This document shows positions 30,201 to 36,200 of a DNA stretch of 64,000 bases, piece by piece. A program made the position numbers. The number at the start of each line of letters is the position of its first letter. The first letter of the stretch is position 1. Source of the DNA: Thermodesulfovibrionales bacterium (lineage in GTDB: Bacteria; Nitrospirota; Thermodesulfovibrionia; Thermodesulfovibrionales; UBA6898); contig JBIOIY010000004.1 in assembly GCA_044450345.1 (NCBI GenBank), positions 1 through 64,000 on the forward strand, written 5' to 3'.

Positions 30201-33200
30201 CTGTTTTCAGCCCAGTTCAGGCGTGCCGCCGCCCACTTCAGATATTCACTGAAAAGGCTGGAGAAAGTCGCCGGGAGAGTGACCGTCTCGTCCGCGGCCG
30301 TGAAGAAAGAACTCCTTGCAGCTACAGGAATAAGGGAAGAGATAATCGATGTGGTCCCCCTTGCCTATAGCCGGGACCGGTTTTATCCGCAAGGACCCGA
30401 GGGAAGAAATGTTTTTTTCAAAAAATATTCGCTGAGGGGACGTTACATTCTCACCGTGGGAAATCTCTTCCCCTATAAAAATATCGACAGTCTGGTGGAA
30501 GCGTTTCTCACAATCAAGGATAAGGTCCCCCATTCACTCGTTATCGTCGGAAGAAAGGAGTATGCAGCCGGGCGGCCGTTGAATGACGAGAGGATACTGT
30601 ATACCGACTATGTGCCGGACGAAGACCTGCCTAAGTTTTATTCTTATGCCGACCTTCTCGTGCATCCCTCCCTGAGCGAGGGCTTCGGACTTACGCCTCT
30701 GGAGGCAATGGCCTGCGGCACCCCCGTCATTTCATCCACCGGGGGCTCCCTTAAAGAGGTCATAGGGGATTCGGGGATGTTCTTTGAGCCTGCTGATACC
30801 GGCTCTATGGGGCGGCTGATCGTCAGGGTATTAGGTGACGAGGGCCTGCGAAAGCGTCTGGTCGAAAAAGGATTTGCACAGACACTGAAATTCTCTTGGG
30901 AAAAAACCGCAGCCGGGATTATGGAGTCGTGCAGGAAGGCGCTGGAAGAGAAACAATGAAGATACTCCATATACTTTATGAAAGTAAGGGTGACTATTTT
31001 GGGATCGGCGGCGTGGGCATGCGTGCATACGAGATTTACCGGTATTTGAAGGAACGCCACGACATCACCCTCCTCTGCAAGAGATATCCGGGCGCCAAAG
31101 ACCGGGAGATAGACGGCTTGAGGCATATCTTTGCCGGCGCTGAGAGCGGGAACCTGACAAGGACTCTCCTGTCTTATGCCTTGAATTCGGCCCTTTTCGT
31201 GAAAAGAGAAGGGGAAAAGTTCGATGTTATCGTCGAGGAGTTTTCCCCTGCCGTCCCTGCCTTCCTCAATTTTTACAAAAAAAGACCTGTAGTGCTGCAG
31301 ATCCAGGGGTATACCGGGACAAAATATTTCGGAAAATACAACCCGTTATACTCTGCCGTTCTATATGCCCTCGAAAGGCTGAGGCCTTCATTCTACAGAA
31401 ATGTCTTGCTCGTATCGGACGTCACGCGGCAGAGGTACTCGCTGCATGGAGACCACACCTCTGTCGGGATGATACCCAACGGCATATCCCGGGAACTCCT
31501 CGGCTGCACGCCGGAAAAATCGGACTATGTTCTTTTTATGGGCAGGATAGACATCCACCATAAGGGGCTTGATGTTCTTCTCGATGCCTATAGAGAGTTC
31601 TCTCCCTTTTTCCCCGGAATAAGGCTGGCTGTTGCGGGAGACGGCAGGGACATGGAAAAATTCCGGGAGAGACTGATGAAGCTTCCCGGCCCCGTAAGGG
31701 AAAAGATAGAACTGCTCGGATGGGTCTTGGGGGATGAGAAGAAGGAGGCATTGCGCAAGGCACTGTTCGTGGTCTTCCCTTCACGGTATGAGGTGCAGCC
31801 CATATCTGTTCTTGAGGCGATGGCGTGCGGCAAGGCGGTAGTGGTGAGCGATATCCCCGAATGCTCTTTTGTCACGCAAAACGGAGCGGGGGTCGCCTTC
31901 AAATCAGGAGACCCGGCCTCGCTTGCCGTCTCGATGAAAGGGCTCGCAGCGAGCGCCGGCCTCGGCGAAATGGGGCTGAAGGGAAGGGAATGGGTCAAGG
32001 ATTTCACCTGGGACAGGATCGCCGAACAATATGAAGATTTCCTCCTGAAGGCAGTGCAGCGGCAAGGCCGTTTTCTGTGATGAGATGTCCTTATTCTGTG
32101 TAGATTATCGCTTTGATCTTCTCCTCATCTCTCAACTTGGCAGCCAATTTCACTGATTCCTTCCTGTCTTCTGACTTTCCGATCAACACCCGGTAGAGAG
32201 TCCCGTTGTCCTTACCGGTGCCTTTGCTCATGAAGGTATCGTATCCCTTGGCTTTAAATTGTTTAGCGAGCGCTGCGGCATTACTTTCACTTTTGAACAC
32301 GCCGAGCTGGACGGAATAGGTCTTCTTCCCGGCTGTTTTCGAAGAGGACTTTTCCGGGGAGGCTGCGGGCGCCGGTACAGGCACCTGCTCCTTCTTTGCG
32401 GCTGTTGAGGGTGCCGCCCTTTGGGCCGGGGCCGGAGGCGAAGGGACCGCCTTACTTTCAATGACGGGTTGCTGTTTCTGCTGTTCATTTGACGGGGTGG
32501 GTGACTCGGCGGGGGATTGAGCAGGCGAAGGAGAAGGCGCAGGAGCGGGTGCTTCGGCCTTCGGCCTTGCTGCCGTACTCATGGGTTTCACGGAGACGGA
32601 TTTTTTTGTTCCGGTGTAAAAGAGGAAACCTGCAATACCGGCTATCACGATGACCAGACCGGCAGCAACGACAGGGGAATTGCTTTTCTTTTTCCTGCGA
32701 GGCGTTCCCTCTTTAGGAGAGGCATCGTAAGAAAAGTCAGGAGCGATCTCCCGAGTCGGCCCGCCAGTACTTTCCCGCTCTTCATCGAACTCAGGTATCC
32801 CGGACATTTCAGGGGCCTCAAGCCGGGCGCCTTTGCCCTGCTGTGTGGCAGGAGCATTTAAAAAATCAGGCGTGCCACTCTCTTCTTTTTTGGGCACCCG
32901 CTCTTTTTCCTTGACGTGCAGCACGATGGGGGCCTTTGTAGAGAGGACCTTCACTGTTTTTTCAAGTAGCTTACCCGGAGTGCAGGGGACATCCAGAAAA
33001 TCGGCGACCCCGAAAGAAGCAACGTCGCGCAAGTCAATGCCGCTGGAGGGAGAGGTCAGCAAGATGATAGGGACCTTTTGCAGCGACTCGAACTCGTGGA
33101 TCGTTTTGCAGATTTCAAGCCCTGTTTCATCAGGATTTATGAATATGAGCGAGGGGCTGACTTTCTGCGCCATTTCCGTGCCGACGTCGCCGCCGGGGAC

Positions 33201-36200
33201 TGCAAAAACAAGATATCCTTCCGATTCAAGAGTCGACGCGATGAGCTGCTCTGTTTCGCTGTCTGCGTCGATTACAAGGATTGTTTTGCTTGCCATGGTA
33301 AATCCCCCTTCAACTGGTTATCGGTATTCAGAGGGCCTCAAAGAGGTTCCCAATACTTGGAAGGCATATCTTGCGCGAGTTTGAGCGCGCCGTTTGATCC
33401 GGCAAACAGGGGCTCTTCGACGCATGATACCCTGCAGGGGCCGTATTCTTTCAGGGCGTCCTGGAGATATTCGCGGAGACCCCTTATAAGGCTGCCGCCG
33501 CCCGCCAGGACGATGTTGTTCTTTATCCTGACCTGGAATTCAGGATCGAACCGCGCGATCATCTCGGTCGTGGTCTCGGTGAGCGCCGGGAGAATGCTTT
33601 CGCAGGCCCTTTTGATCTCGTTCTTGATATCGTGCATGACCGGCTTGCCGTCGACGGGTATCTCCACCAGGACCTCTTCGGCCGTGTTTCCTACAAAACT
33701 GTATTTTTCTTTGAACAGACGCACCATGTTCTTGTTGAACTTCGAGTTCGGATACTTCTCGCTCAGATAACTGAAGAGCTGGTCGTCGATGTAATCCCCT
33801 GCGTTCAGTATGGTCTTCTGGTCTTCCTCGGCAGGGATCGCCCCGTGCATGATGCAGAAATCCGTTGTGCCGGCCCCTATATCGATTACGAGCGAGTTGT
33901 TCAAAAGGTTCATACCGTATGCGACCGCAAAGGGTTCGGTCACGACCATCAGGGCGTGGACGAATTCGGTCACGGCCTTTCTGATGGCGAGCTTGTTCAC
34001 CTTCAGGGTGTCGGCGGGCACGCCTACCACGGCGTGGATCTTCTGTTCCGGGTCAGGGCCTGCGAGCTCGATGAGGTGTTTTATGATCTCTTTCACGGCC
34101 TCTTCATTTTTGTCGATACCCTCCTTTATCACGCCGTGCTCAAGAGGCCTGCAGACGTCGAGGGAAAGCCTGTTCTGCAGGGCCTCGGCGCCGAACAGCA
34201 CCGGCTTGCCGACCACCTGCATCGAGATAAAGTCCTTGGGCCATCCCACGAAACTCTCGATCCACTCCCTCTTGCTGTTGCTTGCGGAGATGGCGCTCCT
34301 CGATGTACCGAGGTCGATCCCGACGAACAGGATATTATCTTTTTTCTGCGGATCCGTTTGCCTCATAACTCAGTTCTCCTTTATTTAGGTAATCCAGTAT
34401 CCCGGCCTCAAGATAATGGGCGATGTTCTCTCTGTGCCCCGGGGTGTTGAGCAGCTGTTCCTCCTCCTTGTTGCTGAGACAGGAGACCTCCGCCAGCACT
34501 GCCGGGATGTCCACCCCGAGCAGGACAACGAAGGGCGCCCTCTTGACCCCGAAATCATACGCGTTTCCGTTGTCTTTCTTGAAGTTCAGGAAAAGCTTTT
34601 TCTGTATCGAATATGCGAGGCCTCTGGACTCCTGCGTCTTCAGCCTCTCGCCCAGTTTCTCGATGATCTCCTTGAAATCGCTCAGGCCGTACTGGGAACC
34701 GGCGTTCTCCTGCTCCGCAAGACGCTGGGTGCCGGTGTCGGAAGAGGGGCCGAAGTAATAGGTCTCGATTATGTTGATCGGCTTGTGAGGAAGATAATTA
34801 AGATGGATGGATATGAAGAGGTCCGTCTTCTTCGACATTGCGAGATCGACCCTCTTGTTGAGGGGCATGGTGACGTCCTGGTCGCGGGTCATCAGCACAT
34901 TAAAACGGCCGTACTTGTCGAGGCGGTCTTTCAGCCTTTTTGCGATATCCAGGGTGATGTCCTTCTCCAGCGTGCCCATTATTCCCTTTGTGCCGGAGTC
35001 TGCGCCGCCGTGTCCTGCGTCTATCATGATCGTTTTTACCCCTAAGCCGAAGGTGCGGCTGACGGACATATCGGGGTTGGTGATAAAGGCCCTGTAATCG
35101 GCCGCGTTTGCCTTGGGGCTCTGAGGAGGGGCCATGTGCTTTATCTCGCCTGCGGTCAACTGCCTCTCCGAAAGGAAGGAGTTGGAGACATAAGACCCGT
35201 GGACGAGGATCGCGACCGTCGAAATGAGCAGGGTCAGAAAAAACTTATTGAGAACAAAATGTTTTGAACGGGATACGGCCCAGTCGCCTTTGCCGATGAT
35301 CCTCAGGTTCTCTTCATAAACCCCCCTCAGCATCTCCTGCTTTATCCTGAGGTCGGTCCTTTTCCGCGAAAAAATAGAGATCATAACGTTAGCATCACTT
35401 TACCAATTTGCGGGAAAAAATTCAATGGAATACCTTTGCGGTAAAAGGTTTTTCGGCCCGATCAGGGCTTTCTGATCATCATCGAAAAGTAAGAAATATT
35501 CTCGACAAACGGGCGTGACACTTATGACACTTTATTGGCGGGGCCTCTTTTTGCCCGCCAGCGGGTTTAGAAGCTGCGCGTCCCTTGTAGAATTCGTCGC
35601 CCTTCAGTGTCCGCAGGGTAAGAGGAATCAGCAGGCGAGTTTCATCACTGCCTACCCGTGCAGAAACTTGCTGATTTTTGCGGTAAAGAATTCCCTGCTG
35701 CAGATAGAGGTTATCAAACTATAGAGGTCTCCATTGCTCACTTTCCTAATGCGCATTACGGCCTTTCTCTTCTTCAACATCTTCGGCAGCAGCCTGAGTG
35801 CATCGAGTTTCGCCCTAACGTAGAGCTTTAGTCTCCCGTGCCTGACGACGAAAAAAAGAAATTCCAGGAGCGTCCCGAGAATATAGGCCGGAAGGCAGCG
35901 GATGAAGACCCACGAAGGGATGTTCTTCATTCTGGTCAGTTCACTGTTTCTCAATGAATAAAACACCGCGGTATCACTCATGTTTCCGATCGTGGAGCGG
36001 ACTTTGTGATGAACAACGGCTGAAGGGACGTACTTCACCTTCCAGCCGGCCAACTGCGCCCTCAAATTGAAATCGGCGTCTTCGTAAATCAAGAAAAAAT
36101 CCTCGTCCAGAAACCCGATCTCCTCGATCATTTTCCTCCTGTACATGGCAGCACCTGCACATGCACCGAATACATATTCGTTTTCATTATACAAGTGAGC

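What a model noticed while it worked through the whole genome (the two positions that open the first line are those of the whole stretch)
32091..35384. MamK-family actin in a conserved operon with an AmiC amidase and a receiver-SPOR protein, without any magnetosome gene
g00652 is a MamK-family actin-like protein (beside the canonical MreB g01513), yet the genome has no other magnetosome gene. It overlaps by 32 nt the AmiC-type peptidoglycan amidase gene upstream (g00653) and is followed by a protein with a phospho-receiver domain and a C-terminal SPOR (septal peptidoglycan-binding) domain (g00651). The trio recurs in relatives, so this MamK-like filament most likely serves septal cell-wall splitting under two-component control, not organelle positioning; it is a candidate for the kind of cell-wall actin from which the magnetosome MamK of the related magnetotactic Nitrospirota was recruited.
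Evidence so far: NCBIfam NF040964 'MamK family actin-like protein' 418.7 bits (cut 400), 41% id to Swiss-Prot MamK; it is the only gene matching magnetosome names in the three tables. Gene order and overlap: call 76. neighbours.tsv floors: Volactin (PF25216) and SPOR within 2 genes in >=185 of 1,547 genomes that have both (>=22 of 316 in the order); MreB_Mbl-Amidase_3 near in >=58 of 316; SPOR-MreB_Mbl near in >=42 of 316. Orthologs (96, 78, 64% id) in 3 of 5 genomes searched; tblastn on the loci of two other genera: amidase-actin adjacent in 2 of 2, receiver-SPOR beside them in 1 of 2. Paper search MamK + non-magnetotactic + actin-like + amidase: 23 papers hold 3 of the 4 terms, none of the 6 listed holds ' [...]
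(Added by a program. Inside this text positions count along the whole contig: contig position 1 is position 1 of the stretch shown here. "Call 12" and the like, gene names such as g00115 and contig names such as C1 are that model's own, and its searches are not shown. The text may have been shortened before it was handed on; [...] marks where a part breaks off. The agent that wrote the report below was given it as the finding of a first reader that could run no searches.)

Follow-up and report, generated by a model that had tools for sequence, protein, structure and literature searches.

The report
Actin filament gene paired with wall-cutting amidase
A non-magnetic relative of the magnetosome actin MamK is always encoded together with a membrane-anchored cell-wall amidase whose short inner tail is predicted to dock onto the actin, which points to an undescribed way for bacteria to steer cell-wall cutting from inside the cell.

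Summary
On the minus strand lie a membrane-anchored Amidase_3 gene (34335-35384), a MamK-family actin gene (33338-34366, 32-nt overlap) and a receiver-like/TM/SPOR gene (32091-33296). The genome shows no magnetosome gene cluster.

The actin belongs to a well-supported clade separate from magnetosome MamK. The amidase lies directly upstream in 69 of 71 related loci from several phyla. The receiver-SPOR gene follows in 43 of 71. No other neighbouring gene recurs.

The amidase has a conserved cytoplasmic tail motif (residues about 11-32), one TM helix, and the blocking and interaction helices of the AmiA/B/C class. A complex prediction places the tail in the actin's IA/IIA cleft (0.83; best control 0.21).

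The "receiver" lacks the phospho-acceptor Asp (N54; Asp in 2 of 45 orthologs). Two-component control is therefore not supported. The genome also has a canonical AMIN-amidase and FtsA is normal in relatives, so a septal role is only one possibility.

Best reading: a cytoskeleton-guided peptidoglycan hydrolase module, like bactofilin-LmdC but built from an actin, an amidase and a SPOR "reader". The trees do not show which MamK-family branch gave rise to which. I found no description in print. All hosts are uncultured.

The parts
34335..35384 (-). Bitopic N-acetylmuramoyl-L-alanine amidase, 349 aa: cytoplasmic tail, one TM helix, periplasmic Amidase_3 domain
   Evidence: PF01520 144.2 bits, residues 119-329; best solved relatives: AmiB 3ne8 108.9 bits, AmiC 4bin 100.7, AmiA 8c2o 81.4
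35289..35354 (-). Conserved cytoplasmic tail motif of the amidase (residues 11-32; L19 and N26 invariant in 19 orthologs), the predicted actin-docking helix
   Evidence: conservation across phyla; interface residues 11, 14-15, 17-23, 25-30, 32
35202..35258 (-). Transmembrane helix of the amidase (residues 43-61); N-in by charge bias (10 K/R in residues 1-46, 5 in residues 64-110)
   Evidence: Kyte-Doolittle 19-residue maximum 2.17
34641..34730 (-). [quoted passage not shown]
   Evidence: alignment to 3ne8 and 4bin; passages of PMC10268282 on the blocking and interaction helices
34335..34366 (-). 32-nt overlap of the amidase stop region with the actin start; an AAGGAGA Shine-Dalgarno-like site lies inside the amidase gene
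   Evidence: an overlap above 0 nt in 74 of 80 amidase-type loci and of at least 14 nt in 71 of 80 (some loci may be the same genomes fetched twice)
33338..34366 (-). MamK-family actin-like ATPase, 342 aa, amidase-linked clade
   Evidence: NF040964 418.7 bits against 400; full-length alignment to Magnetospirillum MamK 5jyg, 312 bits; nucleotide-binding motifs aligned; clade of 24 rows, SH-aLRT 97
32091..33296 (-). Pseudo-receiver / TM / Pro-Ala-rich linker / SPOR protein, 401 aa, with FtsN-like bitopic topology
   Evidence: Response_reg 42.2 bits residues 6-113; SPOR 54.0 bits residues 324-399; TM 209-227, Kyte-Doolittle 2.54
33135..33137 (-). Codon AAT = Asn54, at the position of the phospho-acceptor Asp of receiver domains
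   Evidence: column counts in 45 distinct orthologs: N 24, K 10, R 4, S 2, D 2, E 2
32100..32327 (-). SPOR domain (periplasmic)

Best explanation
This is a self-contained, horizontally mobile two-to-three-gene module that couples a cytoplasmic MamK-family actin filament to peptidoglycan hydrolysis in the periplasm. The amidase is inserted N-in. Its conserved cytoplasmic helix (residues about 11-32) docks into the hydrophobic cleft between actin subdomains IA and IIA. This tethers the filament, which has no membrane-binding segment of its own, to the membrane, and it places the enzyme wherever the filament forms. The periplasmic catalytic domain is of the division-type, auto-inhibited class with a blocking helix and an interaction helix, so it should cut only where a LytM-type activator is present. 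Cutting leaves glycan strands stripped of peptides. The third protein can bind these through its SPOR domain, while its cytoplasmic, non-phosphorylatable receiver-like domain faces the filament. That would give a local feedback loop like FtsA-FtsN-AmiABC. Shown: gene anatomy, co-occurrence, conservation and clade structure. Supported by a model only: the tail-actin contact. Inferred: filament formation, the LytM requirement, SPOR read-out, contact between the receiver-like domain and the filament, and the cellular site (septum, pole or side wall).
For: 1. Coupling. The amidase lies directly upstream in 69 of 71 loci whose actin is at least 51% identical, and the 2 misses are at contig ends. 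It lies upstream in 15 of 15 further Nitrospirota loci. The genes overlap in 74 of 80 loci.

2. Phyletic pattern in 201 genomes of the order. The amidase N-terminal part (residues 1-115) was found in 39. Of these, 38 also have the amidase-type actin, adjacent on the same contig. It was found in 0 of 21 genomes with magnetosome-type MamK.

3. Among 47 loci of at least 9 kb, only three gene families recur: actin 41, amidase 40, receiver-SPOR 34. The next most frequent family occurs in 7.

4. The tail motif is conserved from Nitrospirota to Acidobacteriota, while the rest of the N-terminal part is variable.

5. Complex prediction: score 0.83 (runs 0.83, 0.84, 0.83), best of 3 controls 0.21. That mark was reached by 116 of 157 solved complexes and 2 of 215 mismatched pairs. 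The runs agree in at least 86% of contacts and the partner pLDDT is at least 66. The interface is tail residues 11-32 against actin residues 113, 122-129, 139-142, 150-156, 175-177 and 330-342.

6. The actin has no hydrophobic segment (Kyte-Doolittle maximum 1.38).

7. The catalytic domain aligns with AmiB, AmiC and AmiA across the regulatory insert. Passages of PMC10268282 describe that insert's role. Two Peptidase_M23 genes exist in the genome.

8. A precedent for the logic exists. [quoted passage not shown]
Against: There is no experiment and no expression data, and every host is an uncultured MAG.

The complex score used my own 19-row alignments, so its calibration holds only roughly. Helix-in-cleft complexes of actin-family proteins have been solved (ParM-ParR and actin-WH2; recalled, from no call), so the pass may reflect likeness to those.

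The 23 predicted contact residues are not specially conserved in the clade: 7 of 23 are at least 90% conserved, against 134 of 342 overall. Of the 23, 14 have the same consensus in Nitrospirota magnetosome MamK. The cleft is therefore generic, and in a filament it may be used for subunit contacts.

The AlphaFold2 model of the amidase is poor (mean pLDDT 55.4; tail below 50).

The receiver-SPOR gene is missing next to the pair in about 20 loci that have enough downstream sequence, so it is not obligatory.

The genome has a canonical AMIN-amidase and a third Amidase_3, so the need for a further amidase is unexplained.
Confidence: 0.55

Rival explanations
1. One reading: the filament serves septal splitting of peptidoglycan and is switched by phosphorylation of the receiver domain by a two-component kinase.
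For: SPOR domains and AmiA/B/C-class amidases are known from division sites (PMC10268282 passages; papers on FtsN and SPOR seen only as a search listing). The Response_reg Pfam hit is above its cut-off (42.2 against 30.2).
Against: The phospho-acceptor position is Asn in the window, and Asp occurs in only 2 of 45 distinct orthologs (N 24, K 10, R 4, S 2, E 2). The conserved Lys is present in 23 of 45 and absent in the window (the column was fixed with one canonical receiver and the Pfam register). No kinase recurs in the cassette. A canonical AMIN+Amidase_3 enzyme is encoded elsewhere. FtsA is present in 191 of 201 genomes of the order, including module bearers.
Confidence: 0.12
2. Adjacency without physical coupling: the actin does something else (segregates DNA, a storage body or another organelle) and merely shares an operon with wall enzymes.
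For: Other MamK-family actins of non-magnetotactic bacteria have unknown or different roles. Examples are BeeR (PMC11929497, passages), saltatorellin (bioRxiv 10.1101/817700, passages) and a mamK-like gene beside flotillin in Thiomargarita. The predicted cleft is generic.
Against: There is near-perfect co-occurrence and adjacency across phyla, conserved overlapping reading frames, a conserved cytoplasmic motif on a periplasmic enzyme that otherwise needs none, and no third recurrent gene for an adaptor or centromere-binding protein.
Confidence: 0.15
3. A relic of a lost magnetosome gene cluster: a leftover mamK in a lineage whose relatives are magnetotactic.
For: Genus g6 of the window's own family carries a magnetosome cluster (MamK 463 bits beside MamM, MamB, MamA, MamQ and a MamE-like protein). 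No genome of the 201 has both actin types.
Against: The window's actin is only 42-45% identical to the Nitrospirota magnetosome MamKs. It sits in a separate clade with SH-aLRT 97-99 that spans several phyla. It is 80-100% conserved among the best 120 clusters and always has the amidase, which magnetosome clusters lack (0 of 14 loci).
Confidence: 0.03

Closest known systems
Magnetosome MamK (Magnetospirillum, PDB 5jyg/5ljv; Nitrospirota magnetosome MamK)
   Same: Same NCBIfam family (418.7 bits, cut-off 400). Full-length alignment at 312 bits, with the nucleotide-binding motifs aligned.
   Different: Only 42-45% identical to Nitrospirota magnetosome MamK. It forms a separate clade, has no magnetosome genes in the locus or the genome, and its partner is an amidase.
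Bactofilin BacA with the M23 peptidase LmdC (PMC10945521, passages read)
   Same: A cytoskeletal polymer gene lies next to a gene for a bitopic peptidoglycan hydrolase whose conserved N-terminal cytoplasmic tail binds the polymer.
   Different: Here the polymer is an actin-family ATPase, the hydrolase is an auto-inhibited amidase rather than a DD-endopeptidase, the tail is predicted helical rather than a beta-hairpin, and a SPOR protein is added. Binding here is only predicted.
FtsA-FtsN-AmiA/B/C loop of the divisome
   Same: It has an actin-family protein in the cytoplasm, a bitopic SPOR protein with an N-terminal cytoplasmic part, and division-class amidases that create the SPOR ligand. This resemblance rests on established knowledge, not a test here.
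   Different: FtsN family score is 32.6 against a cut-off of 107.65. The cytoplasmic part here is a receiver-like domain, not a short peptide. The actin is MamK-type, and FtsA is present separately in relatives.
BeeR (Verrucomicrobiota; PDB 8r2n) and saltatorellin (Saltatorellota)
   Same: Both are MamK-family actins of non-magnetotactic bacteria whose function is still unknown.
   Different: BeeR family score is 232.4 against 530, and 8r2n scores 154.8 bits. Neither paper mentions an amidase partner ('amidase' occurs 0 times in PMC11929497). The 7 Planctomycetota loci have no amidase.
MreB-RodZ elongasome
   Same: An actin-family filament is linked to wall enzymes through a bitopic membrane protein.
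   Different: MreB is a separate gene here (503.5 bits, C16). The window's actin scores only 88.5 bits against a cut-off of 293 on the MreB model. Its partner is a hydrolase, not a synthase.

Membership tests
MamK family actin-like protein (NF040964) | Score above the curated cut-off over the full length | tested here: met
   418.7 bits against 400, profile positions 1-329 of 335
MamK family actin-like protein (NF040964) | Actin-fold nucleotide-binding motifs aligned with solved MamK | tested here: met
   Alignment to 5jyg residues 7-340. D18, G20, E144, D162, G164, G166, G289 and G291 are invariant or nearly invariant in 19 orthologs. Assigning these residues to named motifs is recalled.
Magnetosome MamK in the narrow, functional sense | Encoded in a magnetosome gene cluster beside mamA/B/M/P/Q/E | tested here: not met
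   Neighbours are glycosyltransferases, an AlgX-like protein, an MBOAT protein and an ABC-2 transporter. The genome-wide tblastn with 18 cluster proteins found no cluster (assembly 91% complete).
Magnetosome MamK in the narrow, functional sense | Groups with magnetosome MamKs in a tree | tested here: not met
   Separate clade of 24 rows (SH-aLRT 97). The Nitrospirota magnetosome clade has 9 rows (100) (quick trees).
Any cytomotive actin | ATP-dependent polymerisation into filaments | not testable with these tools
   Needs purified protein or expression with a fluorescent tag
AmiC (NF038267) / AmiA/B/C division amidases | Amidase_3 catalytic domain with the regulatory insert (blocking and interaction helices) | tested here: met
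   Aligned through the insert with 3ne8, 4bin and 8c2o, and the insert is conserved. That the helix blocks the site in this protein is inferred.
AmiC (NF038267) / AmiA/B/C division amidases | Family cut-off; N-terminal AMIN targeting domain; exported soluble protein | tested here: not met
   101.5 bits against 700. There is no AMIN hit and a TM anchor instead. A separate AMIN+Amidase_3 protein exists on C1.
Two-component response-regulator receiver (PF00072) | Receiver fold by profile | tested here: met
   42.2 bits against 30.2, residues 6-113
Two-component response-regulator receiver (PF00072) | Phospho-acceptor Asp at the end of strand 3, and the conserved Lys | tested here: not met
   N54 in the window, and Asp in 2 of 45 distinct orthologs. 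The Lys column reads K 23, L 10, M 7, P 3, V 2, with V in the window.
Two-component response-regulator receiver (PF00072) | Cognate histidine kinase linked to the gene | tested here: not met
   No fourth recurrent gene family in 47 loci. A kinase elsewhere in the genome was not sought.
SPOR-domain septal proteins (FtsN, DedD, RlpA) | SPOR domain above the cut-off, periplasmic after an N-in TM helix | tested here: met
   54.0 bits against 21; TM 209-227 preceded by RRKKK
SPOR-domain septal proteins (FtsN, DedD, RlpA) | Membership of FtsN, DedD or RlpA by their family cut-offs | tested here: not met
   FtsN 32.6 against 107.65, DedD 24.7 against 150, RlpA 38.2 against 201

The most novel reading that the evidence does not exclude
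This is a third actin-based cell-wall machine of bacteria, beside the MreB elongasome and the FtsA divisome. A MamK-type filament is bolted through the membrane to an auto-inhibited amidase by a short conserved helix. It is paired with a SPOR protein that reads the amidase's product and reports back through a non-phosphorylatable receiver-like domain. The cassette is self-organising, moves between phyla, and lays down tracks or patches of peptide-free glycan at a site the cell chooses from inside. Because non-magnetosome members sit between the two verified magnetosome MamK lineages in the unrooted tree, the MamK family would then be primarily a family of membrane-partner-tethered filaments, with magnetosome positioning as one specialisation.
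Probability: 0.35. Interest if true: 0.8.

Novelty: new variant of a known kind. Interest (0 to 1): 0.68.

Why it matters
Cytoskeleton-guided wall hydrolysis is known for bactofilins. For actins it is known only indirectly, through synthases. A direct actin-hydrolase tether would add a new design principle for how bacteria position wall cutting.

It would also give the widely annotated but functionally empty label 'MamK family actin-like protein' in non-magnetotactic bacteria a concrete, testable job. It supplies a short peptide-cleft pair that can be tested in E. coli without culturing the hosts.

It further bears on the origin of the magnetosome cytoskeleton. The family clearly has non-magnetosome branches with their own membrane partners, in the same bacterial family that contains magnetotactic genera.

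Tried and rejected
1. The actin replaces FtsA. FtsA was not found in the window's 91%-complete assembly. 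It is present in 191 of 201 genomes of the order, including the same-genus module bearer G370 and G169, G190, G238 and G272. Rejected; the gap is most likely due to assembly.

2. The predicted contact residues are a clade-specific signature. There is no enrichment.

3. Promoter and terminator scan of 31800-35800: 1 promoter-like and 4 terminator-like sites, no more than in shuffles and none at the operon ends. Uninformative.

4. Expression: no RNA holder is listed for the stretch. The 20 rows that hold the stretch or part of it are DNA runs from 8 studies, labelled soil, peat, groundwater and freshwater-sediment metagenomes.

5. Naming the representative clusters: 3 of 10 clusters carried a name, and none was a magnetosome name. 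Magnetosome lineages were instead labelled from gene context and from similarity to solved MamK (P0143 463 bits, P0154 299, P0137 251).

6. AlphaFold2 model of the amidase: mean pLDDT 55.4. This is too poor for a fold search, so none was run. It predicts helices at 2-29, 33-63, 217-226 and 234-244.

7. Long MamK-family proteins with N-terminal extensions: no Pfam domain in the extension, apart from one FtsZ fusion. These are not amidase fusions.

8. The surrounding polysaccharide genes are not conserved with the module.

9. Literature searches found no paper linking a MamK-family actin to an amidase or a SPOR protein. Of the 15 papers listed (17 papers held 3 of the 4 terms), none contains 'MamK'. 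Subscription-only papers are not covered.

Full report
**Anatomy**

Three genes lie head to tail on the minus strand.
- A 349-aa amidase, 34335-35384.
- A 342-aa actin-like protein, 33338-34366. Its ATG lies 32 nt inside the amidase gene, behind an AAGGAGA site.
- After a 41-nt gap, a 401-aa protein, 32091-33296.

A convergent glycosyltransferase gene ends the unit downstream. A 267-nt spacer separates it from a GT2 gene upstream.

Family scans gave these scores.
- Pfam: Amidase_3 144.2 bits (residues 119-329); MreB_Mbl 92.4, Actin 57.5 and a sub-threshold Volactin 34.7 (cut-off 35) for the actin; Response_reg 42.2 (residues 6-113) and SPOR 54.0 (residues 324-399) for the third protein.
- NCBIfam, for the actin: NF040964 'MamK family' 418.7 bits (cut-off 400), BeeR 232.4 (cut-off 530), MreB 88.5 (cut-off 293).
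- Solved structures: Magnetospirillum MamK 5jyg aligns over residues 7-341 at 312 bits. The next hits are 8r2n (154.8 bits) and MreB (58.8 bits).

A hydropathy scan finds one TM helix in the amidase (residues 43-61). The preceding 46 residues are basic. The third protein also has one TM helix (209-227, preceded by RRKKK), and the actin has none. The amidase tail and the receiver-like domain are therefore cytoplasmic, while the catalytic domain and the SPOR domain are periplasmic.

**The genome**

The assembly has 86 contigs, 3.19 Mb, and is 91% complete.
- It has one MamK-family gene, and MreB on C16.
- I verified two Nitrospirota magnetosome clusters by NCBIfam. In both, MamM scores above its cut-off and MamK sits beside MamA, MamB and MamQ matches, which are below their equivalog cut-offs; G106 adds MamP and G308 a MamE-like protease. 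I then searched their 18 proteins against the whole assembly.
- Only the actin itself matched (43% identity), together with weak generic TPR, CDF and HtrA hits at 20-39% identity.
- The genome has three Amidase_3 genes. One is a canonical AMIN+Amidase_3 of 390 aa.
- It also has four SPOR genes and two Peptidase_M23 genes.

**How widespread, and how tightly linked**

The protein is highly conserved. The best 120 clusters in the 5.8-billion-protein collection are 80-100% identical. Where named, they come from Nitrospirota/Thermodesulfovibrionales MAGs as 'MamK family actin-like protein' or 'rod shape-determining protein'.

In the 1.84-billion representative library the whole superfamily is small: 173 representatives at E of 1e-30 or better.

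A scan of one genome per species returned 78 loci. By record title, the actin identities are:
- Nitrospirota: 78-96%.
- Thermodesulfobacteriota, 'delta proteobacterium' and Syntrophaceae: 76-79%, several on contigs of 0.5-2.2 Mb.
- Acidobacteriota and Aminicenantes: 51-74%.
- One Chloroflexota-labelled MAG (74%) and one Clostridia-labelled MAG (65%).
- Planctomycetota: 40-49%.

Linkage within these loci:
- Of the 71 loci with at least 51% identity, 69 have the amidase directly upstream. The two misses start at a contig end.
- A receiver hit is present in 46 of 71, and receiver plus SPOR in 43 of 71.
- Of the 25 without a receiver hit, 3 have less than 450 nt downstream and 2 have a broken or partial actin.
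- None of the 7 Planctomycetota loci has the amidase.

The reading frames overlap in 74 of 80 amidase-type loci, with modes at 32, 17 and 29 nt. Some genomes may be counted twice, because two collections were used.

Among 47 loci of at least 9 kb, only the three genes recur (41, 40 and 34 loci). The next most frequent family occurs in 7. The polysaccharide genes around the window's copy are therefore incidental.

Where the third gene is missing, the downstream gene is a Ysc84-domain gene (Ca. Sulfobium), a SPOR-TPR gene, or something unrelated. The most distant amidase-linked locus (Acidobacteria, 51%) has a SPOR protein without a receiver hit.

**Phyletic pattern in the order**

In 201 genomes, the MamK model matches 64.
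- 21 genomes score 455-507 bits. For 14 such loci fetched from the phylum-wide sample, identity to the window's actin was 42-45% and no amidase was adjacent; two of them were checked and lie in magnetosome clusters.
- 43 genomes score 441 bits or less, the amidase-linked type. Two of these are fragments.

The amidase N-terminal part (residues 1-115) matches 39 genomes, once each.
- 38 of them carry the amidase-type actin next to it.
- The exception is a fragment in a 79%-complete genome.
- None of the 21 magnetosome-type genomes has it.
- Five amidase-type genomes were missed by this insensitive query. Two of them have a divergent amidase adjacent, and two have the actin at a contig end.

No genome has both actin types. 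Because relatives are not independent, I report this only as an observation.

**Phylogeny**

Method:
- I used the 74 of 150 representatives that align over at least 300 residues, plus locus-derived sequences and the genome's MreB as the only outgroup.
- For the second tree I dropped 5 long-branch rows (P0250, P0247, P0207, P0263, P0258) and 6 redundant rows (L035, L068, L072, L074, L053, L004).
- I added 9 Nitrospirota magnetosome MamKs and 6 more amidase-linked actins.

Both trees are 'quick' trees with SH-aLRT support only.
- The amidase-linked actins form one clade: 23 rows at 99, then 24 rows at 97.
- The Nitrospirota magnetosome MamKs form another clade (9 rows, 100).
- An 11-row clade (99) contains P0143, which scores 463 bits against Magnetospirillum MamK, and an FtsZ-MamK fusion. 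It is split from the remaining 92 rows by a branch with support 99.
- The backbone between these clades has supports of 80-89 or is unresolved.

An AU test rejects the 9 Nitrospirota magnetosome rows plus P0143, P0161 and P0177 as one clade (delta lnL 91.8, p 0.0001). Two caveats apply: the group was named after the tree had been seen, and most other representatives are unlabelled and may themselves be magnetosome MamKs.

Within the amidase-linked clade, the Thermodesulfobacteriota and one Acidobacteriota sequence nest among Nitrospirota sequences. This indicates transfer of the cassette between phyla.

**The amidase**

An alignment of 67 orthologs and one of 19 show the following.
- The region between the tail and the catalytic domain is variable.
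- A motif at residues about 15-32 is strongly conserved (L19 and N26 invariant, L27 nearly so), from Nitrospirota to Acidobacteriota.
- The metal-binding and catalytic positions are conserved (H125, E140, H194, E299).
- So is the insert at 219-248 (L222, E226, N227, G229, Y232, F237).

The best solved relatives are the Bartonella AmiB catalytic domain, E. coli AmiC and AmiA, all aligned through that insert. In those enzymes the insert forms a blocking helix, whose Glu latches onto the zinc, and an interaction helix that binds the LytM activator (PMC10268282, passages read). I infer the same auto-inhibition here. The AlphaFold2 model was too poor to check this.

**The predicted tether**

I gave complex prediction the actin (alignment A1) and amidase residues 1-45 (alignment A2). 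Results:
- Score 0.83 (runs 0.83, 0.84, 0.83), against a best control of 0.21.
- That mark was reached by 116 of 157 solved complexes and 2 of 215 mismatched pairs.
- The runs agree in at least 86% of contacts, and the partner pLDDT is at least 66.
- Tail residues 11-32 lie on actin residues 113, 122-129, 139-142, 150-156, 175-177 and 330-342. This is the cleft between subdomains IA and IIA, plus the C-terminal helix.

This supports binding but does not show it. The alignments were my own. Helix-in-cleft complexes of actin relatives exist (recalled). The contact residues are no better conserved than the rest of the protein and are largely shared with magnetosome MamK.

**The 'receiver'**

I aligned 45 distinct orthologs with a canonical receiver from a magnetosome locus, consistent with the Pfam register.
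- The phospho-acceptor column reads N 24, K 10, R 4, S 2, D 2, E 2. The window has N54.
- The loop after it is shortened.
- The conserved Lys column reads K 23, L 10, M 7, P 3, V 2. The window has V.

This is a pseudo-receiver and most likely a protein-binding module. Phosphorylation control is not supported.

**Comparison with what is known**

The closest family by sequence is MamK. By function, the closest described system is bactofilin BacA with the bitopic M23 peptidase LmdC, whose conserved cytoplasmic tail binds the polymer and whose gene is adjacent (PMC10945521, passages read).

The arrangement also mirrors FtsA-FtsN-AmiABC. That rests on established knowledge of those proteins, not on a test here.

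Other MamK-family actins of non-magnetotactic bacteria are BeeR (PMC11929497), saltatorellin (bioRxiv 10.1101/817700) and the Thiomargarita mamK-like gene. None has a reported amidase partner.

Five full-text searches found no description of this module.

**Verdict**

It is wrong on two-component control and unproven on 'septal' and on the evolutionary direction. I rate it a new variant of a known kind, a cytoskeleton-tethered peptidoglycan hydrolase module, with interest 0.68.

Noticed in passing
G308:C36 (L111) and G346, same GTDB family as the window; G106 (L110): Genus g6 of the window's own family carries a magnetosome gene cluster (MamK 463 bits, MamM, MamB, MamA, MamQ, MamE-like). In 201 genomes of the order, 21 have magnetosome-type MamK, 43 have the amidase-linked actin, and none has both. 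This could be chance plus shared ancestry, or the two filaments may be incompatible in one cell.
   Followed up: partly
proteins P0128-P0151, clade of 14 rows: A tight clade of MamK-family actins carries N-terminal extensions of about 190-900 residues with no Pfam domain. P0161 is an FtsZ (Tubulin + FtsZ_C) fusion to a MamK-type actin.
   Followed up: partly
protein P0155 and its cluster members: One MamK-family cluster is made up of proteins from ANME-2 / Methanosarcinales archaeal MAGs, annotated as rod shape-determining protein.
   Followed up: no
L015:7280-7984, L021:1695-2468 (Ca. Sulfobium and a Thermodesulfovibrionales MAG): Where the receiver-SPOR gene is missing, a Ysc84 ('Las17-binding protein actin regulator', SYLF) domain gene follows the actin (127.8 and 129.5 bits).
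   Followed up: no
L070, L072-L075, L077, L080 (Planctomycetota): Planctomycetal MamK-family genes (40-49% identical) lack the amidase. They are flanked by genes with no Pfam hit, or by an HtrA-like or a subtilase protease gene.
   Followed up: partly
L062 and L003, two contigs of one MAG record; also L056, L065, L066, L067: One MAG holds two copies of the whole module on different contigs (actin 96% and 88% identical to the window's), and the second has a frameshifted actin. Several other loci have a split or partial actin gene. This may be strain mixtures or assembly errors.
   Followed up: no
window 22780-27558 (-): A 1592-aa ORF whose only Pfam hit above its cut-off is a multicopper-oxidase domain (residues 1254-1323), plus a weak, sub-threshold purple-acid-phosphatase N-domain hit at the C-terminus.
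   Followed up: no
window 28133-32080 and 35652-41545: A polysaccharide cluster surrounds the module: ABC-2 transporter pair, two GT4 genes, GT2, AlgX-like SGNH acetyltransferase, MBOAT (alginate-type O-acetylation pair) and a radical SAM/SPASM gene. It is not conserved with the module.
   Followed up: partly
G000 whole assembly: FtsA was not found in the window's assembly (only MreB matched, 57.8 bits), although 191 of 201 genomes of the order have it. This is most likely an assembly gap.
   Followed up: yes
L110:12168-13415 (-): In the G106 magnetosome cluster a 415-aa ORF gives a weak MamK-family hit (48.4 bits). It may be a Mad28-like second actin (the name is taken from PMC10653835, passages read).
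   Followed up: no
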